From the NCBI GenBank assembly GCA_963662235.1, contig OY759308.1, positions 1,398,109 through 1,462,108 of the forward strand: a stretch of 64,000 bases of DNA, given 5' to 3'. The notes beneath the pieces are model-generated. The model worked only from the letters and a program-made list of their open reading frames with translations, made no database searches and had not been told where the DNA came from. This document shows, one piece after another, positions 1,190 to 60,261 of the stretch (the first letter of the stretch is position 1; every line of letters begins with the position of its first letter). This DNA comes from Desulfobacterales bacterium. Its GTDB lineage: Bacteria; Desulfobacterota; Desulfobacteria; Desulfobacterales; G963662235. The translations under genes were made by a program, and so were the position numbers.

Positions 1190-1307
1190 TTTTTTTGTGT
1201 TTTAATATTTTTTAATAACTTACTTGCAGGCTTATAATCTGCAACTTAGAAGATAGGTTTAAGATAACTTAATTAAGTGAATTGGCTATATTTTTCTAAT
1301 AATCCAA

Positions 1308-2024: not shown

Positions 2025-2026
2025 GG

Positions 2027-2200: not shown

Positions 2201-2427
2201 ATTTTTAATCTAATTTTATCAATTTGTTTTTTAAATAATCCAAAAAGGTATTGTATTATCAATTGTTTTTTAGCCTTGGGTTTAACGTTGAGTGTATGAT
2301 TTTTATAAGAAATTGCAGGCTTGAAAACTATTAAACTACTACCCCAAAAAGATGCGGGTTATAATACCGATAGAAAACCTATGAAATTTTTATCCATTAA
2401 TAAACATTATCGGCATTTCTTGCTTGT

Positions 2428-5360: not shown

Positions 5361-5652
5361 TGATTTTTTTGAGTTTAAAAAACTAACAAGATTAAGATTA
5401 TTTATTTGTTTTCTATAATGCCCGAAACACCAGTTGCAATGGCCAACAAGTACCTACTAAACATAAATTAGGTTTAGTATTCCAAATAGTCATTCTAAAT
5501 GCAATTATTTTTATTTTCCTTAGTGTCAATTATAAACTAAAATAAGGGCAGGGAAGGGTTGAAATGAATTTTAAATGGATTGTTTTTGTGTATTAAGATA
5601 CAAATGCGTAATGTAAATAAACAATGTAAATATGTAATATTGAAATGCAATA

Positions 5653-5678
5653 TAGAGACGCAAAATCTTGCGTCTCTA
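5653..5678. repeat. REP palindrome TAGAGACGCAAAATCTTGCGTCTCTA with the conserved RAYT-5'-flank sequence to its left
   Basis: 5620-5680 is near-identical to 596-655. Confidence 0.9.
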
Positions 5679-5750
5679 CGGCAACAACAACTACGACGAT
5701 AAAATATCAATATCGCATTCATCATGGTAATATATCAATATTGTATTAAT

Positions 5751-5888
5751 CAACGATTGCGACCATTATTCCCACCACCCCCCTGTAGAGACGCAAGATT
5801 TTGCGTCTCTGTAAGATTTTGCGTCTCTATAAGATTTTGTATTTTTGCGACATTTTGCTTTTTGCAGTATTGCATCTATCAATGGTAT
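5751..5888 (-). pseudogene. Internal fragment of a second RAYT copy
   Basis: Nucleotide-level homology to 150-290. The minus strand reads ...KIQNLIETQNLTETQNLASLQGGGGNNGRNR* compared with KIQNIAETQNLIETQNLASLQGEKNNGRETIS in the 1..571 copy. The frame is broken upstream and no HUH or Tyr regions are present. Confidence 0.6.
5786..5846. repeat. REP cluster (one full palindrome, one half unit and one degenerate half unit)
   Basis: The sequence is tagagacgcaagattttgcgtctct gtaagattttgcgtctcta taagattttgtattttt. Confidence 0.85.
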
Positions 5889-9606: not shown

Positions 9607-9647
9607 AAACGCAAAATTTTGCAGAGACGCAAAATCTTGCGTCTCTA
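9606..9647. repeat. REP (degenerate half unit plus full palindrome AGAGACGCAAAATCTTGCGTCTCT at 9623..9646)
   Basis: The sequence is aaaacgcaaaattttgc agagacgcaaaatcttgcgtctcta. Confidence 0.85.
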
Positions 9648-9674
9648 CAAATTTTATATTAAATAAAAAAAATT

Positions 9675-12458: not shown

Positions 12459-12486
12459 TTTTTTATCTCCATAAAAACTTGTTAAA

Positions 12487-12688
12487 GAGCTTTGCACATA
12501 GCCCTATTTTTGCTTTGGTTTTATGGTGAAGTAGTATGTTTAATACGTCGAACCCAAAACAAAAGAGAGCGTAAGTCTTTATAAGGGTTTTCTTAGGTTT
12601 TTCGCCTTTCGGCGAACCCCCTTAGTCCCCCTTAAAAGGGGGAAAAGGTAAAAAAATCTCACGAAAAAACATTATGAGCAAAGGTCTC
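12487..12688 (-). mobile_element. MITE-like element, copy 1 (variant with two GC-rich hairpins replacing the usual AT hairpin module)
   Basis: Termini are gagctttgcacatagc...cattatgagcaaaggtctc and the core is acgtcgaacccaaaacaaaag..agagcgtaagtctttataa. Unique hairpins are ttcgcctttcggcgaa (12601..12616) and cccccttaaaaggggg (12627..12642). Confidence 0.85.
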
Positions 12689-12758: not shown

Positions 12759-14054
<1,296 letters not shown>

Positions 14055-18873: not shown

Positions 18874-18954
18874 TTATTTTTTACTTTAACTTATTTAGCA
18901 TAACTATTTAATTTGTTTAATAATTTCAAAAATTACAAATTTATTCGAAGTTCT

Positions 18955-23523: not shown

Positions 23524-25194
23524 TTATATTTTTATTTTATCTATTGTATCAAAAAGTAAAGGAACTTCATTTCTTAATTCAGAGCAATTTTCTTTAAGAG
23601 TTTTTAACGCAATTGGAATATATTCTTCAAAGTATATTTTCTTTTTTACCTTAGACAAAAAAGAAAAAGCTCCAAGCATTTGTAAGTTTCTTGTTATAGT
23701 GCAATATTTATAACACTCTTTGAACTCTTTTTCTTCTACTTTGAAAAGTTTGATAAACTTATTCGTGCAATAGTCCGAGAGTGTGTTTTGTGTGTTTTTG
23801 CTAAGATTAACATAAGGGTCTATTAAAAGAGATGCTAAGTCGTATTGAATAAGCCCTTTCATTCCACCTTGAAAATCGATAAAGTAGAATTTTATGTTTT
23901 TATCCTTTTTTATAACCATAATATTCCGAGATTGCATATCTCTATGCATAAAACCCGAAATAGAAAAGTTTAGTGCTTTTTTAGCTATATAATTAAACTC
24001 TTTTTTTAAACTATAAAATGATATATTTTTTTTTAGATAATTGTTTAAAAAAGATTCTGTAAAATATTTACATTCATCTTCAATTATAACCTTTTTATTA
24101 TATTCACTATTTTTAAAACACCACTTTAAGTCAAACTCTTCAATTCCTTTATAAAAACCTTCTATCATCCAATCTATTATCTGTTTATAAATTTTTATAG
24201 TTTTATCTTGAGTAATTGTCTTTATATAGCTTTGGAGTTTTATGTCTCCTAAATCTTGAAGAAGTACAATTCCTGAAAATCTATCCTTAGAATAGATTTT
24301 AGGGTAGGGTAGGTTTTTATTAAAAAGATGATTTCCAATATCGGAAAAAGAGTCTACTTCTAAAGTTTTTTTGCTGGTTGCAATGCTATGCATACTTGCT
24401 ATACAAGATTTTTTTTTATTATATAGCCTGTACCATCTTCTATCAGAGCCATCACCTTGAAGCTCTTGTTTTTTTAATTTTTCTAATTTTTTAAGTGAAA
24501 AAAAATTTTGTCCTATATTATCTAAAACAGTCTCTTCATAGTCTTGAATATTTCCTATATCTTGCCAGTAGTGATTTTTAAAAGTTAAGCTATTAATCTC
24601 AATGTTTTTTTTTATTAACGCTTTGTAAATATCAATAATTCCAATGAATTTATCTTCAGGAATAAAGTCTAAAATTTTAGGCTCAAGAATATGGATGCCC
24701 ATAAATGCAAAAAGCTCTTTTGCCTTATCATCATAATCAAAACTTTTTATGATGCCATTTTTTACACTTATTTTATTAAATTTATTGTGATTATGAAGAG
24801 CAAGAGTCGCTATCTTATTATTTTTTTTATGAAATTCATACAGTTTTTTTAAATCGATATTTGTCAAAATATCCCCGTTAATTACAAGAAACGGTTCGTC
24901 ATTCCAAAAATCTTCTAAATTTTTTATTCCGCCTGCTGTTTCAAGTGGTTTTTTTTCATAATATATATGAACAGGAACTCTATATTTTTGTTTTTTTATA
25001 AAAGTTTCTATTTTTGAAGATAAATGGTGGGTGTTTATAGCTATACTTTCAAAGCCTGCTTTAATAAGTTGATTGATTATAATATCTATAATAGGACGTT
25101 CTTTTGCAATCGGAAATAAAACTTTTGGTAAATTTTTTGAAAAAGGTTCAAGTCTTTTACCAAAGCCTGCTGCGAGAATTAATGCTTTTTTCAT
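23524..25194 (-). CDS. Fusion protein: sugar-1-P nucleotidyltransferase (MurU-like) N-terminus plus APH-type kinase (AmgK-like) C-terminus
   Basis: The N-terminus has KALILAAGFGKRLEPFSKNLPKVLFPI. The C-terminus has HRDMQSRNIMV...FIDFQGG (kinase catalytic and DFG-like motifs). Confidence 0.7.
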   Translation of the reverse strand: MKKALILAAGFGKRLEPFSKNLPKVLFPIAKERPIIDIIINQLIKAGFESIAINTHHLSSKIETFIKKQKYRVPVHIYYEKKPLETAGGIKNLEDFWNDEPFLVINGDILTNIDLKKLYEFHKKNNKIATLALHNHNKFNKISVKNGIIKSFDYDDKAKELFAFMGIHILEPKILDFIPEDKFIGIIDIYKALIKKNIEINSLTFKNHYWQDIGNIQDYEETVLDNIGQNFFSLKKLEKLKKQELQGDGSDRRWYRLYNKKKSCIASMHSIATSKKTLEVDSFSDIGNHLFNKNLPYPKIYSKDRFSGIVLLQDLGDIKLQSYIKTITQDKTIKIYKQIIDWMIEGFYKGIEEFDLKWCFKNSEYNKKVIIEDECKYFTESFLNNYLKKNISFYSLKKEFNYIAKKALNFSISGFMHRDMQSRNIMVIKKDKNIKFYFIDFQGGMKGLIQYDLASLLIDPYVNLSKNTQNTLSDYCTNKFIKLFKVEEKEFKECYKYCTITRNLQMLGAFSFLSKVKKKIYFEEYIPIALKTLKENCSELRNEVPLLFDTIDKIKI

Positions 25195-25232
25195 ATTTAA
25201 TCAAAATAGTAACTTAAAGTTAAAAATAAAAA

Positions 25233-25568
25233 GAAGACTTTTGCATATAATGTTTTGAGACCTTTGCACATAGCTTTATTTTGCTTTTGTTTTGTGGTTC
25301 ACCCTGTGAAATATTTTTAAATTTTTCAAATTTAAAAATAATATTTGAGCTATAAAGCATCAAATATTATTTCACTGGGGTAAAGTAGTATTTTTATACG
25401 TCGAACCCAAAACAAAAATGAAAGAGAGCGTAAGTCTTTATAAGAGTTTTAGAAGTTTTTGTAAAAACTACCAAAAGTTAATGTTTTACTAAAAACCACT
25501 ATTTTTTTCATAAAAAACATTATGTGCAAAGGTCTCTGTTTTTTATAAAAAATATGTGTAGAGGTCTT
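25233..25568 (+). mobile_element. Composite: short-form MITE (outer, + orientation) interrupted by a long-form copy
   Basis: The outer ends are gaagacttttgcatataatgtttt (left) and ttataaaaaatatgtgtagaggtctt (right). Joining them reconstitutes a short-form element. Confidence 0.75.
25257..25536 (-). mobile_element. MITE-like element, copy 2 (long form, 280 bp) nested in the outer short form
   Basis: Full terminal inverted repeats, flanked by TGTTTT on both sides (25251..25256 and 25537..25542). Carries the 84-bp sub-insertion at 25299..25382. Confidence 0.9.
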
Positions 25569-25620
25569 TATTATAAAAAGATATATATTATCAGAAAATA
25601 TTTTTTTTAAAATAGATATT

Positions 25621-26496
25621 ATGCTCAAATTTTTTAAATACTTTATATTAGTGTTTTTCTTTTTTTCAAACTCTTATGCTACTAAAGTTTTTGTCGATCA
25701 GGAAAATAGAACAATAGAACTTACAAAAACTCCTGAGAGAATTGTATCTTTTGCTCCAAGTATAACTGAAATAGTATTTGCTCTTAAAAAAGGAGATCTT
25801 TTAAAGGGTGTTACTGTCTTTAGTAATTATCCTAAAGAAGCTTCAAAAATAGAGAGAATAGGTTCTTATATAAACCTTAGTATAGAAAAAATATTAATGC
25901 TTAAACCAGACTTATGTATTGCTGTAAAAGATGGAAATCCCAAAAAACAAGTAATGGCGTTAGAAAAATTGGGTGTAAAAATATATGTTAGCTCTTCATT
26001 TTCTGTTAGCTCTATTAAAAATACAATTTATGAGCTTGGTAATATTCTTGATGCTAAAAAAAGAGCTAAAGAGCTTGTAGACACTATAGACAAAAAGATT
26101 GATGAAGTAAGTAGTAAAGTCACAAAAGTTAAAGTAAAACCTAAAGTTTTTTTTCAACTTGGGACAAAGCCTATGGTATCGGTTGGCAAAAACACTTATA
26201 TAAATGAGCTTATTGAAATTGCAGGTGGAGACAATATCGCAAAAAATTTAAGTGGATACCCTGTTTTATCTACGGAAAAAGTAATAGAAGCAAATCCCGA
26301 TATAATTATAATATTAACTATGAGTACAAGTTCAAATAACAACACAACTTTTTGGAATAATTTTAATACTATAAAAGCAGTTAAAAATAGAAATATAGTT
26401 TTTATAGATAGCGATGTCTTTGTAAAGCCTTCGGTAAGAATTGTTGAAGCTTTAGAATGCCTTAATGACATAATAATGAAACAAGCAAAAAAATAA
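25621..26496 (+). CDS. ABC transporter periplasmic substrate-binding protein (BtuF/FepB-type, Peripla_BP_2)
   Basis: Signal peptide, then RIVSFAPSITEIVFAL...KPDLCIA...ANPDIIIIL. Confidence 0.8.
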   Translation: MLKFFKYFILVFFFFSNSYATKVFVDQENRTIELTKTPERIVSFAPSITEIVFALKKGDLLKGVTVFSNYPKEASKIERIGSYINLSIEKILMLKPDLCIAVKDGNPKKQVMALEKLGVKIYVSSSFSVSSIKNTIYELGNILDAKKRAKELVDTIDKKIDEVSSKVTKVKVKPKVFFQLGTKPMVSVGKNTYINELIEIAGGDNIAKNLSGYPVLSTEKVIEANPDIIIILTMSTSSNNNTTFWNNFNTIKAVKNRNIVFIDSDVFVKPSVRIVEALECLNDIIMKQAKK

Positions 26497-26693
26497 GTAA
26501 TTTATCCCTATTCCCCATCACTTTTCTATAATTTATTTTTTTGTGATGGCGTGTGCTGTGCCCTTTTAGATAAACCCAGAGATAGAAATTTGCCTTATTT
26601 AACCAAATTAATTATTAAAATTGTTTAATTGAAAAAATGAAATTTTACCAATAAGATAAAAGATTTTAATTTTAAGAAGTAAGGAAGAAAAAA

Positions 26694-28367
26694 ATGCAAA
26701 GGATAGCACTTGGAATAAGCGATTTTAAAGATTTAAGAGATAACAAAGCATATTTTATAGATAAATCTTTTTTCATCAAAGAAATCATAGATGAAAATTT
26801 TCAAACAATCCTGCTTCCTCGTCCTCGTCGTTTTGGAAAAACCTTAAATCTTTCAATGCTTAAATGTTTTTTTGAGAAAGAAAAACAAGACAAATCTTAT
26901 CTATTTAATAATCTAAGCATTACAAAAGAGGCAGAATTTAAAGACCATTTCAATAGATATCCTGTTATATTTTTAAGTTTTAAGGATGTTAAAGCTCAAA
27001 GTTTTAACAAGGCTTATGAGGATATTTGCTTTTTAATAAGTGAAGAATTTAGAAGGCACAAATATCTTCTTTCTTCTGATTTTTTAGATGAAACAGAAAA
27101 GCAAGAATTTAATAAAATTTTAAAAAGAGAAGCCCCCGAAACATTATATACCAACGGTTTAAGAAATCTTTCCAAATGGCTTTATGAATATACAGGTGAA
27201 AAAGTTGTAATTTTAATAGATGAATATGACACACCAATTCAGTCTGCATTTTTTAGTGGCTTTTATGATGAGATGATAAACTTTTTTAGAAATTTTCTAA
27301 GTGCAGGATTGAAAGACAACTCTTATCTTTTCAAAGCTGTTTTAACAGGAATTTTAAGAGTTGCAAGAGAGTCTATTTTTTCAGGTTTAAATAATATCGG
27401 AACATATACAATTTTAGATAAAAGATTTGAAAGAAGTTTCGGATTTACAGAAGATGAAGTTTTTAAAATGCTCGATGATTATAATTTGTCTCAATTTAAA
27501 GAGGGCGTAAAAAAGTGGTATGACGGTTATATTTTTGGAAGTGATACAACAATTTATAATCCTTGGTCTATCTTAAATTTTGTGTCCAGTCCAAATAGAG
27601 AATTTGAACCATTTTGGGTAAATACTTCATCAAATGATATAATCCGAGATTTAGTGATAAATTCTTCAATGTCTATCAAAAAAGAATTTGAATATCTTTT
27701 AGAAGATGAGCCAGTAACTAAACAGATTGATTCTGCTATTGTCTTTCGCGATATAGAAAAAAATGAGACTTCGCTTTACTCTTTTCTTCTATTTTGTGGT
27801 TATTTGAAACCTTTTGAAAAACAAGTGATTGCAGGTGAAAATATTTGTAAACTCCTTATTCCAAATTGTGAGGTTAAAACAATTTTTAGAAAAGCTTTTT
27901 TGATTTGGTTTAATCAAAGTTTTGTAAACGACAAATTGAAGATTATGCTTCAAGCTTTATTGGAAGGAGACTTAGAGCTTTTTGAAGAGATACTCTCGGA
28001 GTTTGTTTTAGAAACACTTTCATATTTTGACACCGCAGGCAAGAATGTTGAGGCGGTCTATCAAGCATTTGTTTTAGGGCTTCTTGTAAGCCTTCCATCT
28101 TCTTCATATGAAGTTAATTCCAATAAAGAGTCTGGTTATGGCAGATACGATATTTCAATCGTTCCAAAAGATTTGAGCAAAAAAGCAATTATAATGGAGT
28201 TTAAAACGATACGAGTTAAAGAAACCAAAGATACAGCTCTTGATTCTGCTATTAAACAGTTAGTTGAGAAAAAATATGAGACAGAGATTTTAAAAAGAGG
28301 GATTAAAGATATTTTAAGATTTGGAGTTGTTTTTGATGGCAAAAGAGTTTGGATAAGAGAAGTCTAA
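26694..28367 (+). CDS. AAA-ATPase-like (PF09820-type) protein with C-terminal PD-(D/E)XK nuclease domain (PDDEXK_9 type)
   Basis: N-terminus reads LGISDFKDLRDNKAYFIDKSFFIKEII...LLPRPRRFGKTLNLSMLKCFF. C-terminus reads ESGYGRYDISIVP...AIIMEFKT (D...E-x-K). Confidence 0.8.
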   Translation: MQRIALGISDFKDLRDNKAYFIDKSFFIKEIIDENFQTILLPRPRRFGKTLNLSMLKCFFEKEKQDKSYLFNNLSITKEAEFKDHFNRYPVIFLSFKDVKAQSFNKAYEDICFLISEEFRRHKYLLSSDFLDETEKQEFNKILKREAPETLYTNGLRNLSKWLYEYTGEKVVILIDEYDTPIQSAFFSGFYDEMINFFRNFLSAGLKDNSYLFKAVLTGILRVARESIFSGLNNIGTYTILDKRFERSFGFTEDEVFKMLDDYNLSQFKEGVKKWYDGYIFGSDTTIYNPWSILNFVSSPNREFEPFWVNTSSNDIIRDLVINSSMSIKKEFEYLLEDEPVTKQIDSAIVFRDIEKNETSLYSFLLFCGYLKPFEKQVIAGENICKLLIPNCEVKTIFRKAFLIWFNQSFVNDKLKIMLQALLEGDLELFEEILSEFVLETLSYFDTAGKNVEAVYQAFVLGLLVSLPSSSYEVNSNKESGYGRYDISIVPKDLSKKAIIMEFKTIRVKETKDTALDSAIKQLVEKKYETEILKRGIKDILRFGVVFDGKRVWIREV

Positions 28368-28374: not shown

Positions 28375-28430
28375 GAGACTTTTGTTCATAATGTCTTTTT
28401 AAAAATAATAGAGCTATGTGAAAAGTTCTC
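28375..28430 (+). repeat. Short-form MITE (termini only, 56-bp hairpin)
   Basis: The sequence is gagacttttgttcataatg...agctatgtgaaaagttctc. Confidence 0.7.
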
Positions 28431-33257: not shown

Positions 33258-34234
33258 CACTCAAATTATCAAATAAAAAAAAAGCGGGATTAAGATTTAT
33301 TTTTGGATTCAATGGCACATCTTTAAATGATGATTTAAAATATATAATAAAAGAGTTGCAATGTTCTGGAATTATACTTTTTTCAAGGAATATTGAAAAT
33401 CCCGAACAGTTAAGAAAAATGTGCTTTGACGCTCAAAATTATGCAAAAAAATGTGGCAACTATCCTCTTTTTATAGCAATCGATCAAGAAGGCGGTATTG
33501 TAGCAAGACTTAAAGAGCCAGAATTTAAGGTGCTTAAAGGATTACCTTTTTTAAAAACAACTTCTGATGTCAAAAAGGAGACCTTGATTTGTGCAGATGA
33601 ACTTAATAAATTGGGTATAAATTTTAATATGGTACCAGTTTTAGATATAAACTCTGGTTCTGATAGTATAATGAAAGACAGGAGCTTTTCGAGCAATCCT
33701 AATAAAGTTGCAGAGCTTGGTGCTAAAATGATAAAATATTTTACAAAAAATGGGATTTTTACATCGGCAAAACATTTTCCAGGAATAGGGCGGACGACTT
33801 TAGATTCTCATTTTCATTTGCCAATAGTAGATGTAGATATAGATGAATTACATAAGGTTGAGTTAGTTCCATTTAAAGAAGCAATAAAATCGGATGTTCC
33901 TTTTATTATGTTGTCGCACATTATTTATAATAAGTTAGATAAATATCCTGCAAGCCTTTCAAAAAAAATTGCAAAAAAACTTCTTAGAGAGAATTTAGGT
34001 TATAATGGAATTGTTATTACAGACGACCTTGATATGAAAGCTTTAGATGAATTTAGTATGAGTACTATTATTAAAAACATAATTGAAGCTGATATAGATA
34101 TAATCCTTATTTGCCATAAAGGGAAGAGAACAGAGGCTTTTTATGAAACCTTAAAATATATTGAAAAAGATGAAAAATATTATTTAGATTCTATTAGACG
34201 AATAAATAAAAAAAAACGAGACCTTTGCACATAA
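33254..34234 (+). CDS. nagZ: Beta-N-acetylhexosaminidase (GH3, NagZ)
   Basis: IDQEGGIVARL, KHFPGIGRTTLDSH and GIVITDDLDM. The last 5 codons plus the stop (RDLCT*) lie in a MITE terminus. Confidence 0.9.
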   Translation: MTLKLSNKKKAGLRFIFGFNGTSLNDDLKYIIKELQCSGIILFSRNIENPEQLRKMCFDAQNYAKKCGNYPLFIAIDQEGGIVARLKEPEFKVLKGLPFLKTTSDVKKETLICADELNKLGINFNMVPVLDINSGSDSIMKDRSFSSNPNKVAELGAKMIKYFTKNGIFTSAKHFPGIGRTTLDSHFHLPIVDVDIDELHKVELVPFKEAIKSDVPFIMLSHIIYNKLDKYPASLSKKIAKKLLRENLGYNGIVITDDLDMKALDEFSMSTIIKNIIEADIDIILICHKGKRTEAFYETLKYIEKDEKYYLDSIRRINKKKRDLCT

Positions 34235-34260
34235 TAAATAGAGCTATGTACAAAGGTCAC
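34218..34260 (+). repeat. Short-form MITE (termini only, 43 bp) with AAAAAC flanking direct repeats
   Basis: The sequence is gagacctttgcacataataaatagagctatgtacaaaggtcac. AAAAAC occurs at 34212..34217 and 34261..34266. Confidence 0.8.
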
Positions 34261-39630: not shown

Positions 39631-40380
39631 TTATCTAATTTTAATTAATGTAGAAAAAAGATTTCTTTTATAATAATCTTTTCCCGTTAAAACCTTATTG
39701 CCTACTACATATTTATAAGAAATTTGTTTTTTACTTTTTTTAGGTAGAATAGAAAGAATAAAAACTTTTACTGCAATAATATTTTTTATACTTATGGGTT
39801 TAAAAAGAGACGAAGTGTTTGATGAGTTATACTCATTTGCTATATTTTCATCAATATTAATGATTTCTATATCAAGCATTCCATCATTATCAGAATCGTA
39901 TGCCCAAATAATTTTGTTGCTACTACCTTTTTCTATATAAGCATATGCAAAAGATATAGATTGAATATTTTCTGCAATAGGCATTAAGTTTCCTTTGCCT
40001 TTTTTTCTTCCTATTACTCCTAAATTTTCATCCGCTATTCCATCTTGATTGGCATCATATTTTTTAGCAAAACCATAGCCAACCATCTCATCAGACGATA
40101 TTTTTCCATCTTCATCTAAATCATAGGAAATTTCTAATGAGGAGTGGCAAGCTTTTGTTATACCAATGTTTTCTCTTTCAAGAGGATTACAATTTGCTCT
40201 TTTGATGTCTCGTTCTATTGTATGGAAAAAAATGCGTACACCACTGCGTTCTTTAATTTTTAAATTGATATTTTTTTCTACATTTCTTTGAACAAAAAAA
40301 AACGAATAACTTAAAGATATAATTATAAAACCAATACTTAAGCTAACTAAAACTTCTATTATTGTGTAACCTTTGCACAT
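39631..40380 (-). CDS. PilW-like minor (pseudo)pilin with three EF-hand-like Ca-binding loops
   Basis: Prepilin N-terminus MCKG|YTIIEVLVSLSIGFIII. Loops are DLDEDGKISSDE (canonical 12-residue EF loop), DANQDGIAD and DSDNDGMLD. Confidence 0.75.
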   Translation of the reverse strand: MCKGYTIIEVLVSLSIGFIIISLSYSFFFVQRNVEKNINLKIKERSGVRIFFHTIERDIKRANCNPLERENIGITKACHSSLEISYDLDEDGKISSDEMVGYGFAKKYDANQDGIADENLGVIGRKKGKGNLMPIAENIQSISFAYAYIEKGSSNKIIWAYDSDNDGMLDIEIINIDENIANEYNSSNTSSLFKPISIKNIIAVKVFILSILPKKSKKQISYKYVVGNKVLTGKDYYKRNLFSTLIKIR

Positions 40381-40410
40381 AATATTGTTTATGAAAAAAT
40401 AGTATTTTTA
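40368..40410 (+). repeat. Solo left end of the MITE family
   Basis: aacctttgcacataatattgtttatgaaaaaatagtattttt matches the consensus gagacctttgcacataatgttttttatgaaaaaatagtggttttt. It supplies the ATG-TGC-AAA-GG start of the PilW-like gene. Confidence 0.75.
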
Positions 40411-40413
40411 AAA

Positions 40414-40911
40414 TTATTCCCATATACCGGCAGTATTGTTCCATTTTCTTAAAACAATATTACCATTTATAGAGTTTGTGCCTACTGAATAGGTTGAGCC
40501 TATACGATTGCTTAAATAGACGTAACCTAAATTTTTTGCAGTTCCATAAGAGGTAAAAGTTGCGGTATTATTTGAATAACTTACATAATCGTCTGGGAAA
40601 TTTTTACTGTTTGTAACAGAAACAGTTGCTTTACCATATCCAAAGAAGACATAAAAATCTTTTAAATTTATCGTTTTATTTAGAATTTCGTACTGATTTT
40701 TTTTTACATTAAAAACAACAGAAATTGTTTTGTTATTTTTTATCGCTTCTGCTCTTGCTTTGTGAAGATTAAAAAACAGCTCTTTCGCTGCTGAACTTAA
40801 TTTGTAATTTAAAGAGATTGTTTTAAAGAAAGGGAAGGAGATGTGTAAAAATATAGAAAGTATAGATACTACAATTATGAGCTCAAAGATAGAGAACGCT
40901 TTTGTTATTAT
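40414..40911 (-). CDS. GspH/FimT-like pseudopilin ORF lacking any ATG, GTG or TTG
   Basis: Not in the ORF track. The frame is open for 180 codons from the TGA at 40956..40954 to the TAA at 40416..40414. It reads ...KKEKIITKA|FSIFELIIVVSILSIFL...YKLSSAAKELFFNLHKARAEAIKNNKTISVVF... The 5' limit shown assumes an ATA start (40911..40909). Confidence 0.6.
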   Translation of the reverse strand: MITKAFSIFELIIVVSILSIFLHISFPFFKTISLNYKLSSAAKELFFNLHKARAEAIKNNKTISVVFNVKKNQYEILNKTINLKDFYVFFGYGKATVSVTNSKNFPDDYVSYSNNTATFTSYGTAKNLGYVYLSNRIGSTYSVGTNSINGNIVLRKWNNTAGIWE

Positions 40912-43274
40912 TTTTTCTTTTTTGAATATTCGTAATCTCCATAAAGAGGTTTGTCATTTTTATAGGTTCCTTTATATAAGGTACCATCTGCCCAAAAAAA
41001 AGTACCCTTCCCCTCTTTTTTACCGTTTTTAAAATAACCTTCGTATCTATTTCTATTAGACCAAGTATATATTCCAAAACCATCAATTGCGTTTTGTGAA
41101 AAATCGCCATCATATTTATCGCCATTTTTAAAAAGCATTGTTCCTTTTCCATGACGTTTGAAATTTTTAAACGTACCTTGATACTCAATGCCGTTTGTAT
41201 ATTTCATTAAACCAAAACCTTCTAATATCCCATTTTTAAAAGAACCTTGATATTTATCTCCATTAGAAAAGATTAAAATAGCGTTACGATCTTCTTTTTT
41301 ATTATTTACGAAAATACCTTTATAATATTTGAAAATGCTATTTTCGTATTTACAAAAACCCTCTCCGTCTAAAAGTCCATTCTTAAAATAGCCCTTGCAA
41401 AAATAAGAACCTGATAGAGACATTGAACCTTGTCCCATAATCTTATCATTACTAAAGTTTCCTTTATAAAGTTTACCATTTTTGAATTTTAATTCTCCAT
41501 ATCCTTCTTTTTTACCTTTTTTAAAAGAACCTTCATAGACACTACCATTTTGTGTTTTGTAAACACCTTGTCCATCCATATATCCATTTTCCCAGTGTCC
41601 GCTATATGTTTCGCCTGTAGAAGTTGTTAAAAGACCTTCTCCATGCCTTTTGCCATTTCTAAAGTCCCCTTCATATTTTGCCCCATTGATATATAGATAG
41701 GTTCCTACACCATTTGGTAGGTCATTTTTCCAGTGACCATTATATTTAGAACCATTATTGTAAATTATTACACCTAAACCATCTCGCTTATCGTTTTTCC
41801 ACTTACCTTTATATAAACTGCCGTCAGGATAGAAATATGAACCTTCTCCCTCTTTTTTATTATTTTTATACTCTCCTGTATATTTACTACCATCTACATA
41901 AACATATGTTCCAGCACCTGTTAGTTTACCAGCTTCATATCCACCTTTATAATAGCTACCATCTGCAAAGAAAAACTCTCCTTTGCCATCGTGTAAGCCT
42001 TTTTTAAATGTACCTTTATATTTACTACCATCGGCATAATTATATACTCCAGCACCTGTTAGTTTCCCAGCCTTATATCCACCTTTATAATAGCTACCAT
42101 CTGCAAAGAAAAACTCTCCTTTACCATCTTGTACACCTTGTTTAAATGAGCCTTTATATTTACTACCATCAGGAAAATAAAAAGTTCCAAGTCCATCAAA
42201 TTTATCATCTTTGAATGTGCCTTCATATTTACACCCATTTCCAAGAATCAAGGTGCCATAACCATTTTTTTTATCATAAATATAGTTGCCTACATATTTA
42301 CTTCCATTTGACCATATATAAGTTCCTTGTCCAGATTTTTGACCGTTTTTATAGTTTCCTTCAAAAGAGTTACCATTGCCAAAATTCATCTTCCAAATTC
42401 CAGCTCTTTTATCGCTTACATAATCTCCTTCATAATGTTTATCACTTGAATCGCTTTTTAAAACCCAGAACCCCTCTTTTAAACCATTTTTGTATTTGCC
42501 TTTTTCAGTACTGTTGTCATAATTTTTTATAGTCCACTTACCTTCTCTTTTATCGTTTTTATAATGGCCTTTATGCACAGAGCTATTTTTAGGGTAAAAA
42601 ACTACAAATTCGCCATGCTTTTTACCATCTACATATTCACCCTTATAAGTTGTCTTTTGACTATCAATAAAAACACCAGGACCATTTCTAAAACCATTTT
42701 CAAATTGTCCTGTAAACTTTGAGCCATTTTTAAACGTTATTATTCCTTTACCATGTTTTAAATCGTTGCTCCATTCGCCTTCATATGTACTTTTATCTTG
42801 CTTAATATATTTTCCAAAACCCTCTCGTTTATTGTCTTTCCAGTCGCCACTATATTTGCTTCCATCACTCCAAGTATATGTTCCTTTCCCATTCCTTAAA
42901 TCGTTTTTCCATTCTCCGTCATATTTACTACCATCTGGCCAAGTGCATTCCCCTTTCCCATCTCTTAAATTGTATTTCCAATTACCAGAATATTTAAAAC
43001 CATCTTTTTTTGAATAGACTCCAAATCCTTCCTTTTTATTATATTTCCAATTGCCTTTATATTTGCTTCCATCTGGCCAAACACAAAGACCTTCGCCATG
43101 TTTGTCCCCAATTTTTAAATTACCTTTATATCTCCCTTTTCCATTAAAGGTATAAACACTATAGCCATTCTTGCAATCTCCAGTTATGCACCTGTCCATT
43201 AACTCTGGTTGCAAACAGGAATTTAAAAAAAATAAAGTGCTAAAAAGTAGTAATATAGAAAGTTTTTTTGTCAT
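40908..43274 (-). CDS. MORN-repeat lipoprotein (about 33 MORN units)
   Basis: Lipoprotein signal MTKKLSILLLFSTLFFLNSC, followed by continuous YxGxWxxxxxxGxG repeats. Start trimmed to the ATG at 43274. Confidence 0.85.
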   Translation of the reverse strand: MTKKLSILLLFSTLFFLNSCLQPELMDRCITGDCKNGYSVYTFNGKGRYKGNLKIGDKHGEGLCVWPDGSKYKGNWKYNKKEGFGVYSKKDGFKYSGNWKYNLRDGKGECTWPDGSKYDGEWKNDLRNGKGTYTWSDGSKYSGDWKDNKREGFGKYIKQDKSTYEGEWSNDLKHGKGIITFKNGSKFTGQFENGFRNGPGVFIDSQKTTYKGEYVDGKKHGEFVVFYPKNSSVHKGHYKNDKREGKWTIKNYDNSTEKGKYKNGLKEGFWVLKSDSSDKHYEGDYVSDKRAGIWKMNFGNGNSFEGNYKNGQKSGQGTYIWSNGSKYVGNYIYDKKNGYGTLILGNGCKYEGTFKDDKFDGLGTFYFPDGSKYKGSFKQGVQDGKGEFFFADGSYYKGGYKAGKLTGAGVYNYADGSKYKGTFKKGLHDGKGEFFFADGSYYKGGYEAGKLTGAGTYVYVDGSKYTGEYKNNKKEGEGSYFYPDGSLYKGKWKNDKRDGLGVIIYNNGSKYNGHWKNDLPNGVGTYLYINGAKYEGDFRNGKRHGEGLLTTSTGETYSGHWENGYMDGQGVYKTQNGSVYEGSFKKGKKEGYGELKFKNGKLYKGNFSNDKIMGQGSMSLSGSYFCKGYFKNGLLDGEGFCKYENSIFKYYKGIFVNNKKEDRNAILIFSNGDKYQGSFKNGILEGFGLMKYTNGIEYQGTFKNFKRHGKGTMLFKNGDKYDGDFSQNAIDGFGIYTWSNRNRYEGYFKNGKKEGKGTFFWADGTLYKGTYKNDKPLYGDYEYSKKKK
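40917..40923 (-). promoter_or_regulatory. Candidate -1 frameshift heptamer A_AAA_AAG (dnaX type)
   Basis: In the MORN frame the sequence is TCA AAA AAG AAA AAA TAA. A -1 slip enters the pseudopilin frame (AAA AAA GAA AAA ATA ATA ACA AAA GCG TTC). Confidence 0.25.
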
Positions 43275-43308
43275 AATTTTTTCACTAAAAATTAAGTGTT
43301 TTAATGTT

Positions 43309-45114
43309 TTAACTGTTTTGTTTTCTCTTATTATAAATAAAAAAACCAATAAAAAACAGTATAATTGGAATAAATGTCATATTTACTATTGTTAATATTT
43401 TACCTAATAAATCTATATCTTGTCTCAATTTTTTTCTGATTTCACGTCTTTGACGTTTGAAATTTATCTCTTTTTCTTTAAATTCTAAAATCTTTTTTTC
43501 TTGTTCTGGTGATAATATTGTTGTTTTGCCGTCTTTCTCTTTTCTTGTCGCTTCAAGTTTATTTAGCTCTTCATTAAGTCTCGATATTTTTGTTGTAAGT
43601 TCTCTATCCAAAACCAACCATTTTTCTTGAGCTTTTTTTTCAAGTTCGACTACTTTATCAAAAGGTCTTAAATATTTTCCTCGCATTCTGATTTTAATTA
43701 AATCTGTATCACCATCTAAGAATTTTAAACAGTTTATAAGAAAAGTAATATTTTGATTAACTTGTCTTACAATTCTATTACCTAAAAAATCAAATACTCT
43801 TATGGCATAAAGGTTATTTAAAAAATCTATATCTCCCATAATAAAAACAGAATTATTTTTTTTAGATTCTTTAATGTGTTTTTTCATATATAAAGAGTCT
43901 TTAGGTTTTTGCTCAAAAGCGGACTTGAATTGCCCTGTTACAATTCCTGCAAGTGAATAAGTTTTATTTTCCTTATTAAAGTTTTCAATCTCTGTAAAAG
44001 GCATAAAGTTCATCTTTTTGCTGTCGATAAAACCTGCTTTATTTTTTGTGTTTATTAAAGATATATAGTCGTTTTTAGCTACGTTCTCAAAATAACTGCT
44101 CTCTATTAATAGCATATCTTGAAAGTTTTTAGAGATGAAGTTGTTTTGGTTAAAATTTTTTTCATCTAATGATAACCAAAAAGGGTATCTAACAGTAAAT
44201 CCATCTCTTGTAGAAACACTTGCTGCAGAATTCATATCAGCTACTACTTTATCATTGTGATATTTAATGCCTATCGTTTTAAAAACAGATTCAGGGTTAG
44301 ATGATGTGGCTATCGCAAGCTGTCTCGCCATATTTTTTTCTATAGATGTTCTTGCCGAAGAATCGACAAGAATTGCAGTCTTTCCGCCGTTTAAAATGTA
44401 TTGATCTATAGCATATTCTGTCTCTTCAATAAGTTCAGGAGGATGTAAAAGCATAAGTAACGAAATGTTTTGTGGAATCTCTTCTATATCTTCTGCAAGA
44501 AACTCGATATCAAATAGTTTTTCTATTTCGCTTATAAAAAGCCATTCATTTTGAACTTCACGAATATTTTTTAATGGAAGAGATGTTATTATGCCAATTT
44601 TACTTTTTTCCTTAGACCTTTGGACTTGAGTAAGCATATTGGTAATTTCAAATTCAAGAGAGTTCTCATCTCTAATATCAAAAAAAGGTATTGAAAAAGT
44701 CTTGTCCCCACAAATAGCAACTGCACCAATATAAAAAGGGGTAGAGACCCCTGCTGAAATTTGCTTTATTCCGTATCTTGTAGCATTAAGCTCTTCTTCT
44801 GTATCTGGAAGAGGATCGTGTATTTCAAAACTGATAAGATTATTGTATTCAAGATACTCTTTTAAAAACTCTTCTACCCTCTTCCCATAATTTTTTATAA
44901 CTGTAGATAAAGTATCATTAGAAGCTGAAAAGTAATATTTTATAGTTATTTTCTTATCTATTTTTTTTATAATGTTTTTGGATTCATTAGATAAAGTAAA
45001 GAGGTTATCTTTTGTAAGGTCTATTTTAAAAAAAATCTTACCTGCAATAAAATTAACTATAAATAAAAAGAGAAATAGAAATAAAACTTTTAGTGGCAAC
45101 TTAATTGATTTCAT
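43309..45114 (-). CDS. GldG-like ABC-transporter auxiliary protein (ABC_transp_aux)
   Basis: N- and C-terminal TM anchors, a large periplasmic domain, a coiled-coil segment, and position after an ABC-2 permease. Confidence 0.7.
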   Translation of the reverse strand: MKSIKLPLKVLFLFLFLFIVNFIAGKIFFKIDLTKDNLFTLSNESKNIIKKIDKKITIKYYFSASNDTLSTVIKNYGKRVEEFLKEYLEYNNLISFEIHDPLPDTEEELNATRYGIKQISAGVSTPFYIGAVAICGDKTFSIPFFDIRDENSLEFEITNMLTQVQRSKEKSKIGIITSLPLKNIREVQNEWLFISEIEKLFDIEFLAEDIEEIPQNISLLMLLHPPELIEETEYAIDQYILNGGKTAILVDSSARTSIEKNMARQLAIATSSNPESVFKTIGIKYHNDKVVADMNSAASVSTRDGFTVRYPFWLSLDEKNFNQNNFISKNFQDMLLIESSYFENVAKNDYISLINTKNKAGFIDSKKMNFMPFTEIENFNKENKTYSLAGIVTGQFKSAFEQKPKDSLYMKKHIKESKKNNSVFIMGDIDFLNNLYAIRVFDFLGNRIVRQVNQNITFLINCLKFLDGDTDLIKIRMRGKYLRPFDKVVELEKKAQEKWLVLDRELTTKISRLNEELNKLEATRKEKDGKTTILSPEQEKKILEFKEKEINFKRQRREIRKKLRQDIDLLGKILTIVNMTFIPIILFFIGFFIYNKRKQNS

Positions 45115-45156
45115 AATTTTTAAAATTTATTTTTATAAGAACTTTTCTCAAAATTC

Positions 45157-45894: not shown

Positions 45895-45920
45895 TTCAAT
45901 ACCTTAAAATATTAATCTTT

Positions 45921-46101
45921 GAGACCTTTACACATAGCTTAATTTTGCTTTTGTATTTTTATACTTCGAACCCAAAACAAAAGTAAAAGAAAGCGTAAGT
46001 CTTTATAATGGTTGTACAAGTTTTTGTAAAATTATCAAAAGTTAGTATTTTACAAAAAAAATCACTATTTTTTAATAAAAAACATTATGTGTAGAGGTCT
46101 C
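45921..46101 (-). mobile_element. MITE-like element, copy 5
   Basis: Termini gagacctttacacatagc...cattatgtgtagaggtctc. It overlaps the last 9 codons of thiE. Confidence 0.85.
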
Positions 46102-47145: not shown

Positions 47146-47160
47146 ATTATATATTATTTT

Positions 47161-47440
47161 GAGACCTTTGCACATAGCTTAAATTTTGCTTTTGTTTTGT
47201 GGTTCACCCTGTGAAATATTTTTAAATTTTTCAAATTTAAAAATAATATTTGAGCTGTAAAGCATCAAATATTATTTCACTGGGGTAAAGTAGTATTCTT
47301 ATACGTCGAACCCAAAACAAAAGTGAAAGAGAGCGTAAGTCTTTATAGGGGTTTTAGAGGTTTTTTTAAAAATTACCAAAAGTTAATATTTTTTCAAAAC
47401 CACTATTTTTTTCATAAAAAATATTATGTGCAAAGGTCTC
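47161..47440 (-). mobile_element. MITE-like element, copy 6 (long form, 280 bp)
   Basis: Near-identical to copy 2 and includes the 84-bp sub-insertion (47204..47287). TATTTT occurs on both flanks (47155..47160 and 47441..47446). Confidence 0.9.
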
Positions 47441-47446
47441 TATTTT

Positions 47447-49614: not shown

Positions 49615-49764
49615 CTTTATAACTTCTTTTATATAAAACTATTTTATTTTAATAAACTTAATATGAATCTTGATTACAACAATTTGACTTTTAAATTATA
49701 TGCATATTTAAAAACACATAAGTTTTTTTAAAAAATTGTCAATAATAACATTAAGGAGATTGTT

Positions 49765-50028: not shown

Positions 50029-50100
50029 GTTTTTAACTAACCTTATTAACATCAACTCAAAATTATAAAATAAACATATAAATATACTTTTTTTAATACG

Positions 50101-50937
50101 ATGCAGATTCTTTCATATGCAAAAATAAACCTCTTTTTCTATATAAAAAACAGAAGAGAAGATGGCTTCCATAATATTTTGTCTCTTATGTGCCAAATCG
50201 GGATTTATGACGAAATTTTAGTAGATTTTATAAATAGGGAAAAAATAGAGATTGATTGTGATGACAAAAGTGTACCGGATAATGAAGGAAATATAGTATA
50301 TAAAGCTATAACTCTTTTTGCAGAAAAAAACAAAAAAGATATTTCTTGTAAGGTTCAAATTAAAAAAAATATTCCTATAGGTGCAGGACTTGGAGGCGGT
50401 AGCTCAAACGCAGCCGCTATTCTTCTGCTCCTTAATGACTATTATAAAAAACCTTTCTCTACAAAAGAACTTATGGAGATTGGCAAACAAATAGGTGCCG
50501 ATGTGCCATTTTTTATATTTAAAAAAAACGCAATTGCTGAAGGGATAGGAGATAAACTTAAAAGATACAAAGTCAAACCTTACAATATAATAGTCGCTTA
50601 TCCAAACATCAATATATCTACAAAAACAATTTATAAAAAGGTCAATTTGGAATTGACAAACAATAAAAAAAAACTTAGTGGAGAAAGTTTTTATAAAGAC
50701 AGATGTGTTTTAGATTTAGTTTCAAATGACTTTGAATCTATAGTTTTTAAAATGCATCCTGAAGTTCAGGAATTGAAAAAATATTTTTTAAAAAAAGAGG
50801 CAGATGCCTCTCTTATGTCTGGAAGTGGCTCTTCAGTTTTTGCTATTTTCAATGATATAAAAAAAGCACAAAACACATTGTCAGATTTAAAAAACAAAAC
50901 TAATTATAAGGTTTTTTTAACTACTATATTAGATTGA
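50101..50937 (+). CDS. ispE: 4-diphosphocytidyl-2-C-methyl-D-erythritol kinase
   Basis: GHMP kinase motif PIGAGLGGGSSNAAA, with AKINLFF at the N-terminus. The stop TGA overlaps the first bases of a MITE. Confidence 0.92.
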   Translation: MQILSYAKINLFFYIKNRREDGFHNILSLMCQIGIYDEILVDFINREKIEIDCDDKSVPDNEGNIVYKAITLFAEKNKKDISCKVQIKKNIPIGAGLGGGSSNAAAILLLLNDYYKKPFSTKELMEIGKQIGADVPFFIFKKNAIAEGIGDKLKRYKVKPYNIIVAYPNINISTKTIYKKVNLELTNNKKKLSGESFYKDRCVLDLVSNDFESIVFKMHPEVQELKKYFLKKEADASLMSGSGSSVFAIFNDIKKAQNTLSDLKNKTNYKVFLTTILD

Positions 50938-51129
50938 GACCTTTGCACATAATGCTTTTTATAAAAAAATAGTGGTTTTTAGTAAAATATTAACTTTTGA
51001 TAATTTTACAAAAACTTCTAAAACCCTTATAAAGATTACGCTCTCTTTTACTTTTGTTTTGGGTTCGACGTATAAAAATACTACTTCACCACAAAACAAA
51101 AGCAAAATAAAGCTATGCACAAAGGTCTC
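50936..51129 (+). mobile_element. MITE-like element, copy 7
   Basis: gagacctttgcacataatg...aaagctatgcacaaaggtctc, with both internal hairpins present. Confidence 0.9.
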
Positions 51130-52212: not shown

Positions 52213-52409
52213 GAGACCTTTGCACATAATGTTTTTTATGAAAAAATAGCGGTTTTTTTGTAAAATATTAACTTTTAAGAATTTCTCAAAAACTTGCAAA
52301 ACACTTATAAAGACTTACGCTCTCTTTTACTTTTGTTTTGGGTTTGACGTATAAAAATACTACTGCACCACAAAACAAAAGCAAAATTTGAGCTATGTGC
52401 AAAGGTCTT
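52213..52409 (+). mobile_element. MITE-like element, copy 8
   Basis: Full termini, with AAAAAC on both flanks (52207..52212 and 52410..52415). Confidence 0.9.
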
Positions 52410-53217: not shown

Positions 53218-53379
53218 AGGTCTTTGTTCATAGCTCTCATTAATACGTCAAATCCAAAACAAAAGCAAAAGAGAGCGTAAATCTTTATAATGGTTTTTGA
53301 AGTTTTTGTAAAATTACCAAAAGTTAATATTTTTTCAAAACACTATTTTTTTATAAAAAACATTATGTGCAAAGGTCTT
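53218..53379 (-). mobile_element. MITE-like element, copy 9 (shorter, left terminus degenerate)
   Basis: aggtctttgttcatagc...acgtcaaatccaaaacaaaag...cattatgtgcaaaggtctt. Confidence 0.8.
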
Positions 53380-60065: not shown

Positions 60066-60261
60066 GAGACCTTTGCACATAATATTTTTTATGAAAAAAA
60101 TAGTGGTTTTTTGTAAATTATCAACTTTTGGCAATTTCACAAAAACAGCTAAAACCCTTATGAAGACTAACGCTCTCTTTTGCTTTTGTTTTGGGTTCGA
60201 CGTATAAAAATACTACTTCACCACAAAACAAAAGCAAAATAAAGCTATGTGCAAAGGTCTC
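60066..60261 (+). mobile_element. MITE-like element, copy 10
   Basis: Perfect termini gagacctttgcacataat...agctatgtgcaaaggtctc. GTTTTT occurs on both flanks (60060..60065 and 60262..60267). Confidence 0.92.

What the first reader, a model, noticed from the sequence alone, without database searches (positions are those of the whole stretch)
25233..25568. MITE inserted into a MITE: a long-form copy sits inside a short-form copy with a TGTTTT duplication
Seen in sequence:
- The segment gaagacttttgcatataa-TGTTTT is followed by the inner 280-bp element in the opposite orientation.
- After the inner element comes TGTTTT-ttataaaaaatatgtgtagaggtctt.
- Deleting the inner copy and one TGTTTT rebuilds a continuous short-form element. 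Its left-end sequence (...cataatgttttttataaaaaa) matches the family consensus.

This is the clearest in-window evidence that the family moves by cut-or-copy insertion and generates a 6-bp duplication. It also shows that the family's own AT-rich left arm is a preferred target.
Basis: seen in the sequence. Interest (0 to 1): 0.6.

Follow-up and report, generated by a model that had tools for sequence, protein, structure and literature searches.

The report
Small transposon nested inside smaller one
A 280-base non-coding mobile element landed inside a 49-base relative of itself and duplicated six bases; this is real, but it is an ordinary event for this kind of bacterial "junk" transposon.

Summary
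Window 25234-25568 is a 49-nt short-form MITE split by a 280-nt long-form copy (25257-25536) of the same family, in the opposite orientation. TGTTTT flanks the inner copy on both sides (25251-25256 and 25537-25542).

Removing the inner copy and one TGTTTT rebuilds AAGACTTTTGCATATAATGTTTTTTATAAAAAATATGTGTAGAGGTCTT. This aligns to the family's short-form consensus with score 57. The best of 5000 shuffles scored 38, and the best of 860 non-family tiles scored 32.

The family has 16-nt terminal inverted repeats (GAGACCTTTGCACATA) and 12 copies or remnants in 64 kb. Five copies have perfect 6-bp flanking duplications.

A genome about 98% identical has the same nested structure. It lacks the 43-nt short form at 34218-34260 and has a single AAAAAC there. 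That is a true empty site and proves the 6-bp duplication.

The termini are of the IS5-family type seen in ISPg1, ISNme1 and the BrickBuilt and ATR MITEs. No transposase was found.

The "preferred target" claim is only suggestive. Insertions favour [GA]T6-9AT, a motif the element carries in its own arm, but there is only one nested event.

Verdict: a new MITE family showing a known phenomenon. Interest is low to moderate.

The parts
25234..25250 (-). Outer short-form MITE, first piece: degenerate terminal inverted repeat AAGACTTTTGCATATA plus A
   Evidence: 3 mismatches to GAGACCTTTGCACATA. Continues into the family's ATAATGTTTTTTAT sub-terminal sequence once the inner copy is removed.
25251..25256 (.). 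Target-site duplication, copy 1 (TGTTTT); part of the outer element's sub-terminal T-run
   Evidence: Read directly; identical to 25537-25542.
25257..25536 (+). Inner long-form MITE (280 nt) with perfect 16-nt terminal inverted repeats
   Evidence: 0 mismatches at both ends. 94.7% identical over its full length to the long copy at 47161-47440. nhmmer E=1e-54.
25299..25381 (+). 83-nt hairpin block that distinguishes long form from the ~196-nt medium form
   Evidence: Absent from the medium copies (alignment). The same block at 47204-47286 is missing from the orthologous copy in the related genome.
25537..25542 (.). Target-site duplication, copy 2 (TGTTTT)
   Evidence: Read directly.
25543..25568 (-). 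Outer short-form MITE, second piece: TTATAAAAAA plus degenerate terminal repeat TATGTGTAGAGGTCTT
   Evidence: 3 mismatches to the terminus. Its central 13 nt (TGTGTAGAGGTCT, 25555-25567) match the variant at 46088-46100 in the right end of the 45921-46101 copy. TTATAAAAAA continues the consensus as in the copies at 50936 and 53219.
34218..34260 (-). 43-nt short-form copy flanked by AAAAAC/AAAAAC; absent from the related genome
   Evidence: Empty site ...AAAAAAAAAC|TTTATTTT in L070.
28375..28430 (-). 56-nt short-form copy, no flanking duplication
   Evidence: Shares the internal junction ATAGAGCTATGT with the copy at 34218.
47161..47440 (+). Second long-form copy, TATTTT duplication
   Evidence: It is the medium form at the same site in the related genome.
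12485..12688 (+). Family copy (variant right half), no duplication seen
45921..46101 (+). Family copy with a 20-nt internal deletion relative to its orthologue; no duplication seen
50936..51129 (-). Medium-form copy between the GHMP-kinase gene and a tRNA gene
52213..52409 (-). Medium-form copy, GTTTTT duplication (element orientation)
53219..53379 (+). Family copy with a degenerate AGC-side end
60066..60261 (-). Medium-form copy, AAAAAC duplication (element orientation)
40366..40415 (-). Solo end of a family copy

Best explanation
The locus records two successive insertions of non-autonomous DNA transposons (MITEs) of one family.

The family is defined by 16-nt terminal inverted repeats, GAGACCTTTGCACATA. 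It comes in three sizes: short (43-56 nt, little more than the two ends), medium (~196 nt) and long (280 nt, which is medium plus an 83-nt hairpin block).

First, a short-form copy inserted into the 90-nt spacer between two divergent genes. One gene encodes a nucleotidyltransferase/kinase and the other a periplasmic binding protein. Later, a long-form copy inserted in the opposite orientation into the T-run next to one end of that short copy (...CATAA|TGTTTT|TTAT...).

The presumed mechanism is a transposase supplied in trans that binds the terminal repeats and cuts the target with a 6-nt stagger, after which gap repair duplicates TGTTTT.

Shown here: the ends, the 6-bp duplication, exact restoration of the outer element, recent mobility of the family (an empty site in a sister genome) and a target bias for [GA]T6-9AT.

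Inferred: the transposase, probably a DDE enzyme of the IS5 type judging from the termini; whether movement is cut or copy; and any effect on the two flanking genes.
For: - **Exact sequence and coordinates:**
- **Terminal repeats:** strongly over-represented, 23 matches against 0.44 expected.
- **Excision test:** the product scores 57; shuffles reach at most 38 and non-family tiles at most 32. The rebuilt junction restores the six-T run of the consensus.
- **Relative age:** the outer ends are more decayed (3+3 mismatches) than the inner ends (0+0), as expected if the outer is older.
- **Flanking duplications:** five copies have perfect 6-bp duplications. The random expectation is 0.0014 per site.
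- **Empty site:** the 43-nt short form at 34218-34260 is missing from a ~98% identical genome, which has a single AAAAAC there.
- **Independent assemblies:** the nested junctions are present in two other assemblies.
- **No coding capacity and no known RNA:** no transposase in the window and no Rfam family.
- **Fold:** the elements fold into long hairpins, z about -9.
- **Termini:** the first 12 nt are identical to those listed for IS5-family ISNme1 and the BrickBuilt MITE. That paper also reports A-run duplications and a MITE nested in a MITE (PMC4596501).
Against: - No allele with the outer element alone was found. The only related genome available has the same nested structure.
- The outer element has no clean 6-bp duplication of its own. 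ATAAAAAG occurs on both sides but is offset by 4 nt on the right.
- Four other complete copies (12485-12688, 28375-28430, 45921-46101, 50936-51129) also lack duplications.
- No autonomous element with these ends was found in the window, in 42 kb of the related genome, or in the collection scans. The transposase is therefore inferred.
- The outer element is 7 nt shorter at its internal junction than the other two short forms.
Confidence: 0.9

Rival explanations
1. The outer arms are not a pre-existing element. They are by-products of the inner copy's own history, for example an aberrant or one-ended transposition, or a local duplication of its ATAATG end placed on both sides.
For: The left outer piece resembles the reverse complement of the inner copy's own right end. 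The outer element lacks its own flanking duplication.
Against: - The arms differ from the inner ends at 3 of 16 positions each, while the inner ends are perfect.
- The right arm's central 13 nt match the end variant of a different copy, the one at 45921-46101.
- Excision restores one continuous sequence that matches independent short forms at 28375 and 34218.
- The inner copy has the family-typical 6-bp duplication.
Confidence: 0.05
2. Chance: AT-rich intergenic DNA next to a real MITE happens to resemble family ends, and TGTTTT recurs by chance in a T-rich context.
For: The region is about 80% A+T. T-rich hexamers of the form [T/G][G/A/T]TTTT are very common, with 2111 sites in the window.
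Against: - 0 of 5000 shuffles and 0 of 860 real tiles reach the observed score.
- A match to the terminus with 3 or fewer mismatches is expected 0.44 times in the whole window. Here two occur, in inverted orientation, flanking the inner copy.
Confidence: 0.02
3. The family is not transposase-driven. It is a REP/REPIN-type or other structured intergenic repeat spread by a tyrosine (HUH) enzyme or by recombination, and the nested look comes from recombination between adjacent repeats.
For: - The genome has a REP-associated tyrosine-transposase-like remnant with its own palindromes at 187-654.
- Family copies are strongly hairpin-forming.
- One copy (47161-47440) differs between strains in a way best explained by gene conversion.
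Against: - REP-type elements make no target duplication. This family shows 6-bp duplications at five sites and a clean empty site.
- The palindromes linked to the tyrosine-transposase remnant (GAGACGCAAAATCTTGCGTCTC) are a different sequence family.
- The termini match IS5-type ends.
Confidence: 0.03

Closest known systems
BrickBuilt MITE of Porphyromonas gingivalis (and MITEPgRS/MITE464), linked to IS5-family ISPg1/ISPg4 (PMC4596501)
   Same: - The terminal repeat starts GAGACCTTTGCA, 12/12 identical to BrickBuilt_4.
- Non-coding, multi-copy and intergenic.
- Flanking duplications are A/T runs (GAAA, AAAA(A)), confirmed there too by filled and empty sites between strains.
- One copy there encloses another MITE.
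   Different: - BrickBuilt is larger and carries an internal minisatellite.
- Its duplications are 2-5 bp and variable, whereas here they are consistently 6 bp.
- There is no sequence similarity beyond the ends.
- The host here is an AT-rich uncultured bacterium whose nearest protein matches (~50% identity) carry Desulfobacterales/Thermodesulfobacteriota names.
ATR (AT-rich repeat) MITE of Neisseria meningitidis and its proposed parent ISNme1 (IS5 family), as cited in PMC4596501
   Same: Terminal repeat GAGACCTTTGCAAAA against GAGACCTTTGCACAT here (12 of 15). A small, AT-rich, non-autonomous element assigned to a parent only through its ends.
   Different: A parent IS is known for ATR and none was found here. 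Internal sequences are unrelated. The duplication length for ATR was not checked here.
Nested ('Russian doll') transposable-element insertions in general
   Same: An inner element with its own duplication interrupts an outer element that is restored by in-silico excision. Prokaryotic TE pipelines handle this explicitly (PMC3852290).
   Different: Here both partners are tiny. The outer element is only 49 nt, barely more than two terminal repeats.
Correia / ERIC / RUP-type bacterial MITEs (from general knowledge, not tested here)
   Same: Intergenic elements of 100-300 nt with inverted ends, strong hairpin potential, size classes caused by internal blocks, and frequent overlap with gene starts and stops.
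   Different: The ends and the duplication differ (Correia duplicates TA). There is no sequence relation.

Membership tests
[quoted passage not shown] | Small and without coding capacity for a transposase | tested here: met
   Copies are 43-280 nt. There are no transposase domains in the window's ORFs.
[quoted passage not shown] | Terminal inverted repeats | tested here: met
   16-nt GAGACCTTTGCACATA at both ends. 23 matches in the window against 0.44 expected.
[quoted passage not shown] | Target-site duplication of fixed length | tested here: met
   Perfect 6-bp duplications at 5 copies. The chance per site is 0.0014.
[quoted passage not shown] | Multiple dispersed copies | tested here: met
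   12 copies or remnants in 64 kb, about a quarter of intergenic DNA.
[quoted passage not shown] | Presence/absence polymorphism with a clean empty site | tested here: met
   34218-34260 is absent from L070, which has a single AAAAAC.
[quoted passage not shown] | An autonomous element with the same ends that can supply transposase | tested here: inconclusive
   None was found in the window, in L070/L071, or in the scans of genome, metagenome and viral collections. The full genomes could not be scanned.
IS5-family-derived element (ISPg1/ISNme1-type ends) | Ends of the GAGACCTTTGCA type | tested here: met
   12/12 identity to the ends tabulated for BrickBuilt_4 and ISNme1 (PMC4596501).
IS5-family-derived element (ISPg1/ISNme1-type ends) | Mobilised by a DDE (DDE_Tnp_1) transposase of the IS5 family | not testable with these tools
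   No partner transposase was identified. Testing needs the whole genome or an experiment.
IS5-family-derived element (ISPg1/ISNme1-type ends) | Duplication length typical of the family | tested here: inconclusive
   The duplication here is 6 bp. The cited paper gives 2-9 bp for ISPg elements. A 183-nt metagenomic MITE with the same end has 5 bp (L076). From my own knowledge, the classical IS5 subgroups give 2-4, 8 or 9 bp.
Nested transposon insertion | The inner element is bounded by the family's own duplication, and excision restores a continuous outer element | tested here: met
Nested transposon insertion | The outer element is older than the inner | tested here: met
   The outer ends have 3+3 mismatches and the inner ends 0+0.
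Nested transposon insertion | An allele carrying the outer element alone | tested here: inconclusive
   The only relative available (L070) already has the nested form.
REP/REPIN with RAYT | Palindromic units without target duplication, linked to a tyrosine transposase | tested here: not met
   The family makes 6-bp duplications. The RAYT-like remnant at 187-654 is flanked by a different palindrome.

The most novel reading that the evidence does not exclude
The family may be self-targeting by design. Its preferred insertion motif ([GA]T6-9AT) is built into its own sub-terminal arm. Copies would then act as landing pads for further copies, and the family would grow by nesting from 43-nt "micro" forms, which are barely two ends yet were still mobile since the two strains diverged, to composite long forms.
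Probability: 0.2. Interest if true: 0.45.

Novelty: new member of a known kind. Interest (0 to 1): 0.28.

Why it matters
The locus gives a clean, internally controlled reading of how an undescribed MITE family moves: 16-nt IS5-type ends, a 6-bp duplication and T-run targets. The host is an uncultured, AT-rich, small-genome bacterium.

Together with the empty site in the sister genome, it shows the family was active recently. It also shows that an element as small as 43 nt was mobilised.

This is useful for annotating this genome, where the family fills about a quarter of intergenic DNA and overlaps gene starts and stops. It also helps the search for the responsible transposase. It does not change what is known about transposition.

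Tried and rejected
**1. Search for the autonomous parent element.** Four collection scans were run.
- The 16-mer end against genome contigs gave mostly chance or coding hits. It also hit multi-copy elements in two Flavobacteriales/Weeksellaceae MAGs that start with the identical 16-mer but are cut by contig ends. ORFs next to these hits were not transposases.
- A 24-mer of the ATAATG end against metagenomes gave 0 hits.
- A 17-mer against metagenomes gave mostly a conserved coding sequence, one 183-nt MITE with a 5-bp duplication, and three tiny palindromes.
- The viral collection gave 6 unrelated hits.
No parent was found.

**2. Known RNA families.** Rfam found nothing at gathering thresholds except a tRNA. 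At E<=1 it gave only noise in the locus.

**3. Conserved RNA structure.** The consensus fold of 8 copies showed almost no covariation because the copies are too similar. This is no evidence either way.

**4. Promoters or terminators created by the element.** The consensus scan found fewer promoter-like sites than shuffles and no terminator. No claim is made.

**5. The 83-nt hairpin block as a third mobile element.** No copies exist outside long-form copies and there is no clean duplication. This idea was rejected in favour of gene conversion.

**6. Literature search** for MITEs in Thermodesulfobacterium found nothing.

**7. Outer-only allele.** Not found, because the relative has the nested form.

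Full report
**1. What is at the coordinates**

The + strand reads as follows:
- ...aaaaag AAGACTTTTGCATATAA TGTTTT (25234-25256)
- GAGACCTTTGCACATAGC...AACATTATGTGCAAAGGTCTC (25257-25536, 280 nt)
- TGTTTT TTATAAAAAATATGTGTAGAGGTCTT (25537-25568)

The locus sits in the 426-nt spacer between two divergent genes. One is a 556-aa nucleotidyltransferase/kinase gene (23524-25194, minus strand). The other is a 291-aa periplasmic-binding-protein gene (25621-26496, plus strand). The composite fills 335 of those 426 nt.

**2. The repeat family**

A self-comparison of the window finds one family defined by the 16-nt terminal inverted repeat GAGACCTTTGCACATA. The two ends can be told apart: one continues ...ATAGC and the other ...ATAATGTTTTTTAT.

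The terminus, allowing up to 3 mismatches, occurs 23 times in the window against 0.44 expected. All but one occurrence belong to family copies.

The family has three size classes.
- **Medium, ~196 nt:** 50936-51129, 52213-52409 and 60066-60261, with variants at 12485-12688, 45921-46101 and 53219-53379.
- **Long, 280 nt:** 25257-25536 and 47161-47440. These are the medium form plus an 83-nt hairpin block.
- **Short, 43-56 nt:** 28375-28430, 34218-34260 and the outer element discussed here. These consist of the ATAATG end joined almost directly to the other terminal repeat.

A solo end lies at 40366-40415. An nhmmer profile finds no further copies.

The window encodes housekeeping genes and no transposase. 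No Rfam family matches. Copies fold into long hairpins with z about -9, as expected for elements with inverted ends and an internal palindrome. Eight copies are too similar to show covariation.

**3. Test of the nesting claim**

Removing 25257-25542 (the inner copy plus one TGTTTT) gives AAGACTTTTGCATATAATGTTTTTTATAAAAAATATGTGTAGAGGTCTT, 49 nt.
- Its first 32 nt follow the family's ATAATG-end consensus across the former junction. They include the run of exactly six T and the TTATAAAAAA variant seen in the copies at 50936 and 53219.
- Its last 16 nt are a terminal repeat. The central 13 nt of that repeat (TGTGTAGAGGTCT) are identical to the variant at the right end of the copy at 45921-46101.
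- Against a short-form consensus the local alignment scores 57. Five thousand dinucleotide shuffles of the reconstructed spacer have mean 20.9 and maximum 38. The 860 non-family 140-nt tiles of the window have maximum 32.

The outer ends carry 3 mismatches each and the inner ends none. This fits an older outer copy and a younger inner copy.

Both junctions are also present in an independent short-read assembly of what appears to be the same strain (L062 and L063).

**4. The 6-bp duplication and an empty site**

Four other copies have perfect 6-bp direct repeats immediately outside the terminal repeats. They are given in element orientation, except s34 on the + strand:
- TATTTT at 47161-47440
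- GTTTTT at 52213-52409
- AAAAAC at 60066-60261
- AAAAAC at 34218-34260

At random intergenic positions a 6/6 match occurs with frequency 0.0014.

A homologue search found a genome whose orthologues are 98-99% identical: ENA ERZ21862600, contig_2, 1.6 Mb. Two 21-kb stretches of it (L070 and L071) align to window 13725-36016 and 42397-61578 at about 98% nucleotide identity.

In that genome the 43-nt short form at 34218-34260 is absent. The site reads ...AAAAAAAAAC|TTTATTTT with one AAAAAC, where the window has AAAAAC on both sides of the element. This is a textbook filled/empty pair. It proves the 6-bp duplication and shows the family moved after the two strains diverged.

The nested locus itself is present in the relative with the same arms and the same TGTTTT pair. 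The nesting therefore predates the split, and no outer-only allele is available.

**5. Target choice**

The reconstructed empty sites are:
- cataaTGTTTTttat for the nested case
- atataTATTTTttat
- aataaGTTTTTttat, on the reverse strand relative to the element
- ataaaGTTTTTtttt(at)
- ttatcGTTTTTaaac

Four of the five fit [GA]T6-9AT. That motif occurs 77 times on both strands of the window. Nineteen occurrences are in intergenic or family DNA, and ten of those are the family's own sub-terminal AATGTTTTTTAT.

So the element does carry a good copy of its own target motif. However, family copies are already 1897 of 7742 intergenic bp. Under a looser T-run model, one nested hit among 5-11 insertions has probability 0.88-0.99 by chance. 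One event cannot show a preference beyond the general T-run bias.

**6. What kind of element it is**

A full-text search for the terminus found it in a paper on the BrickBuilt MITE of Porphyromonas gingivalis (PMC4596501).
- GAGACCTTTGCA is the end of BrickBuilt copies.
- It is the end of the IS5-family element ISNme1 of Neisseria meningitidis, the proposed parent of the ATR MITE.
- It is one or two bases from the ends of ISPg1 and ISPg4.
- That paper reports A-run duplications confirmed by filled and empty sites.
- It also reports a BrickBuilt copy that encloses another MITE.

Prokaryotic TE pipelines explicitly untangle such "Russian doll" nestings (PMC3852290).

A 183-nt MITE with the same end and a 5-bp duplication turned up in a metagenome contig (L076).

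The best-supported mechanism is therefore trans-mobilisation by a DDE transposase of the IS5 type, with a 6-nt staggered cut. The transposase is inferred, because four collection scans and all available flanking sequence failed to find it.

The rival REP/RAYT reading fails because REP-type elements make no duplication. The RAYT-like remnant in this window is associated with a different palindrome.

**7. Host**

Beyond the sister genome, the best protein matches are only 40-50% identical. They carry names such as Desulfobacterales or Thermodesulfobacteriota MAGs. The window is 29.5% G+C. The organism was not identified further.

**8. Verdict**

The "preferred target" extension is plausible but unproven.

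This is a new MITE family in a poorly known lineage, showing a well-known phenomenon. The most interesting by-products are two:
- The empty site shows that a 43-nt element was recently mobile.
- At 47161-47440 the same insertion is the long form in one strain and the medium form in the other. This is best explained by gene conversion between copies.

Noticed in passing
window 47204-47286 (inside the copy at 47161-47440) versus L071 4781-4977: At the same genomic site, with the same TATTTT flanks, the window strain has the 280-nt long form and the ~98% identical relative has the 197-nt medium form. The 83-nt hairpin block has no clean duplication. A linked A/G difference is shared by all long copies. 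Gene conversion between dispersed copies looks more likely than insertion or deletion.
   Followed up: partly
window 187-654; also 5655-5680, 5784-5830 and 9620-9650: There is a second, unrelated repeat system. Palindromes GAGACGCAAAATCTTGCGTCTC flank an ORF starting at 571 (minus strand). That ORF matches the NCBIfam REP-associated tyrosine transposase model at E=8e-8 (32 bits, below the 80-bit cut-off, N-terminal half only). It is probably a decayed RAYT with its REP sequences.
   Followed up: partly
window 26520-26555 versus L070 (reverse complement) 12998-13566: The relative carries a strain-specific ~560-nt block here. It holds an extra long-form copy without an obvious duplication, plus the GAGACGCAAGATTTTGCGTCTC palindromes. 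The window has 35 unrelated bases at this position.
   Followed up: partly
window 26836-28135 (inside ORF 26694-28367): The 557-aa AAA-ATPase_like/PDDEXK_9 gene is intact in the window but reduced to 122 aa in the relative by a 1.3-kb deletion.
   Followed up: no
window 18916-18953 versus L070 (reverse complement) 5239-5391: The relative has a degenerate half copy of the MITE flanked by a ~36-nt direct repeat (TTTAATAATTTCAAAAATTACAAATTTATTCGAAG-like). The window has a single copy of that repeat and no element.
   Followed up: no
window 53961-54044 versus L071 11493-13119: The relative has an extra 1.6 kb encoding a 514-aa multi-pass membrane protein with no Pfam match. It lies between the peptidyl-tRNA hydrolase and MlaD genes and is absent from the window.
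   Followed up: partly
window 45921-45936 and 46086-46101: In this copy both terminal repeats carry the matching change at position 10 (G to A on one end, C to T on the other), which keeps the ends complementary. The orthologous copy in the relative shows the same change.
   Followed up: no
window 25226-25233 and 25573-25580: ATAAAAAG occurs on both sides of the outer short-form element: directly adjacent on the left and 4 nt (TATT) away on the right. It could be a decayed or offset duplication of the outer element, or chance in A-rich DNA.
   Followed up: no
window 46072-46101, 47161-47175, 50936-50937: Called ORFs run into MITE ends. The ThiD2/TMP-TENI gene (46072-47175, minus strand) has its stop inside one copy and its first ATG inside the terminal repeat of the next copy. 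The GHMP-kinase gene's stop overlaps the first bases of the copy at 50936.
   Followed up: no
L003, L006, L009, L011, L012, L019, L021, L029, L031 and other loci: Two MAGs (Flavobacteriales MAG-57 and Weeksellaceae S3R_St_34) hold multi-copy elements that begin with the identical 16-mer GAGACCTTTGCACATA followed by AA. Most lie about 40 nt from contig ends, which suggests a repeat that breaks assemblies. Their full structure could not be seen.
   Followed up: partly
window 40908-43349 (minus strand): An 813-aa protein built of MORN repeats (Pfam E=1e-129). It accounts for the 69-nt periodic DNA repeats at 41004-43076.
   Followed up: partly
window 650-5360: A cluster of RhuM-family, YgjP-like metallopeptidase, HATPase_c_3 and C-5 cytosine methylase genes sits next to the REP/RAYT remnants. 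It may be a defence or mobile island.
   Followed up: no
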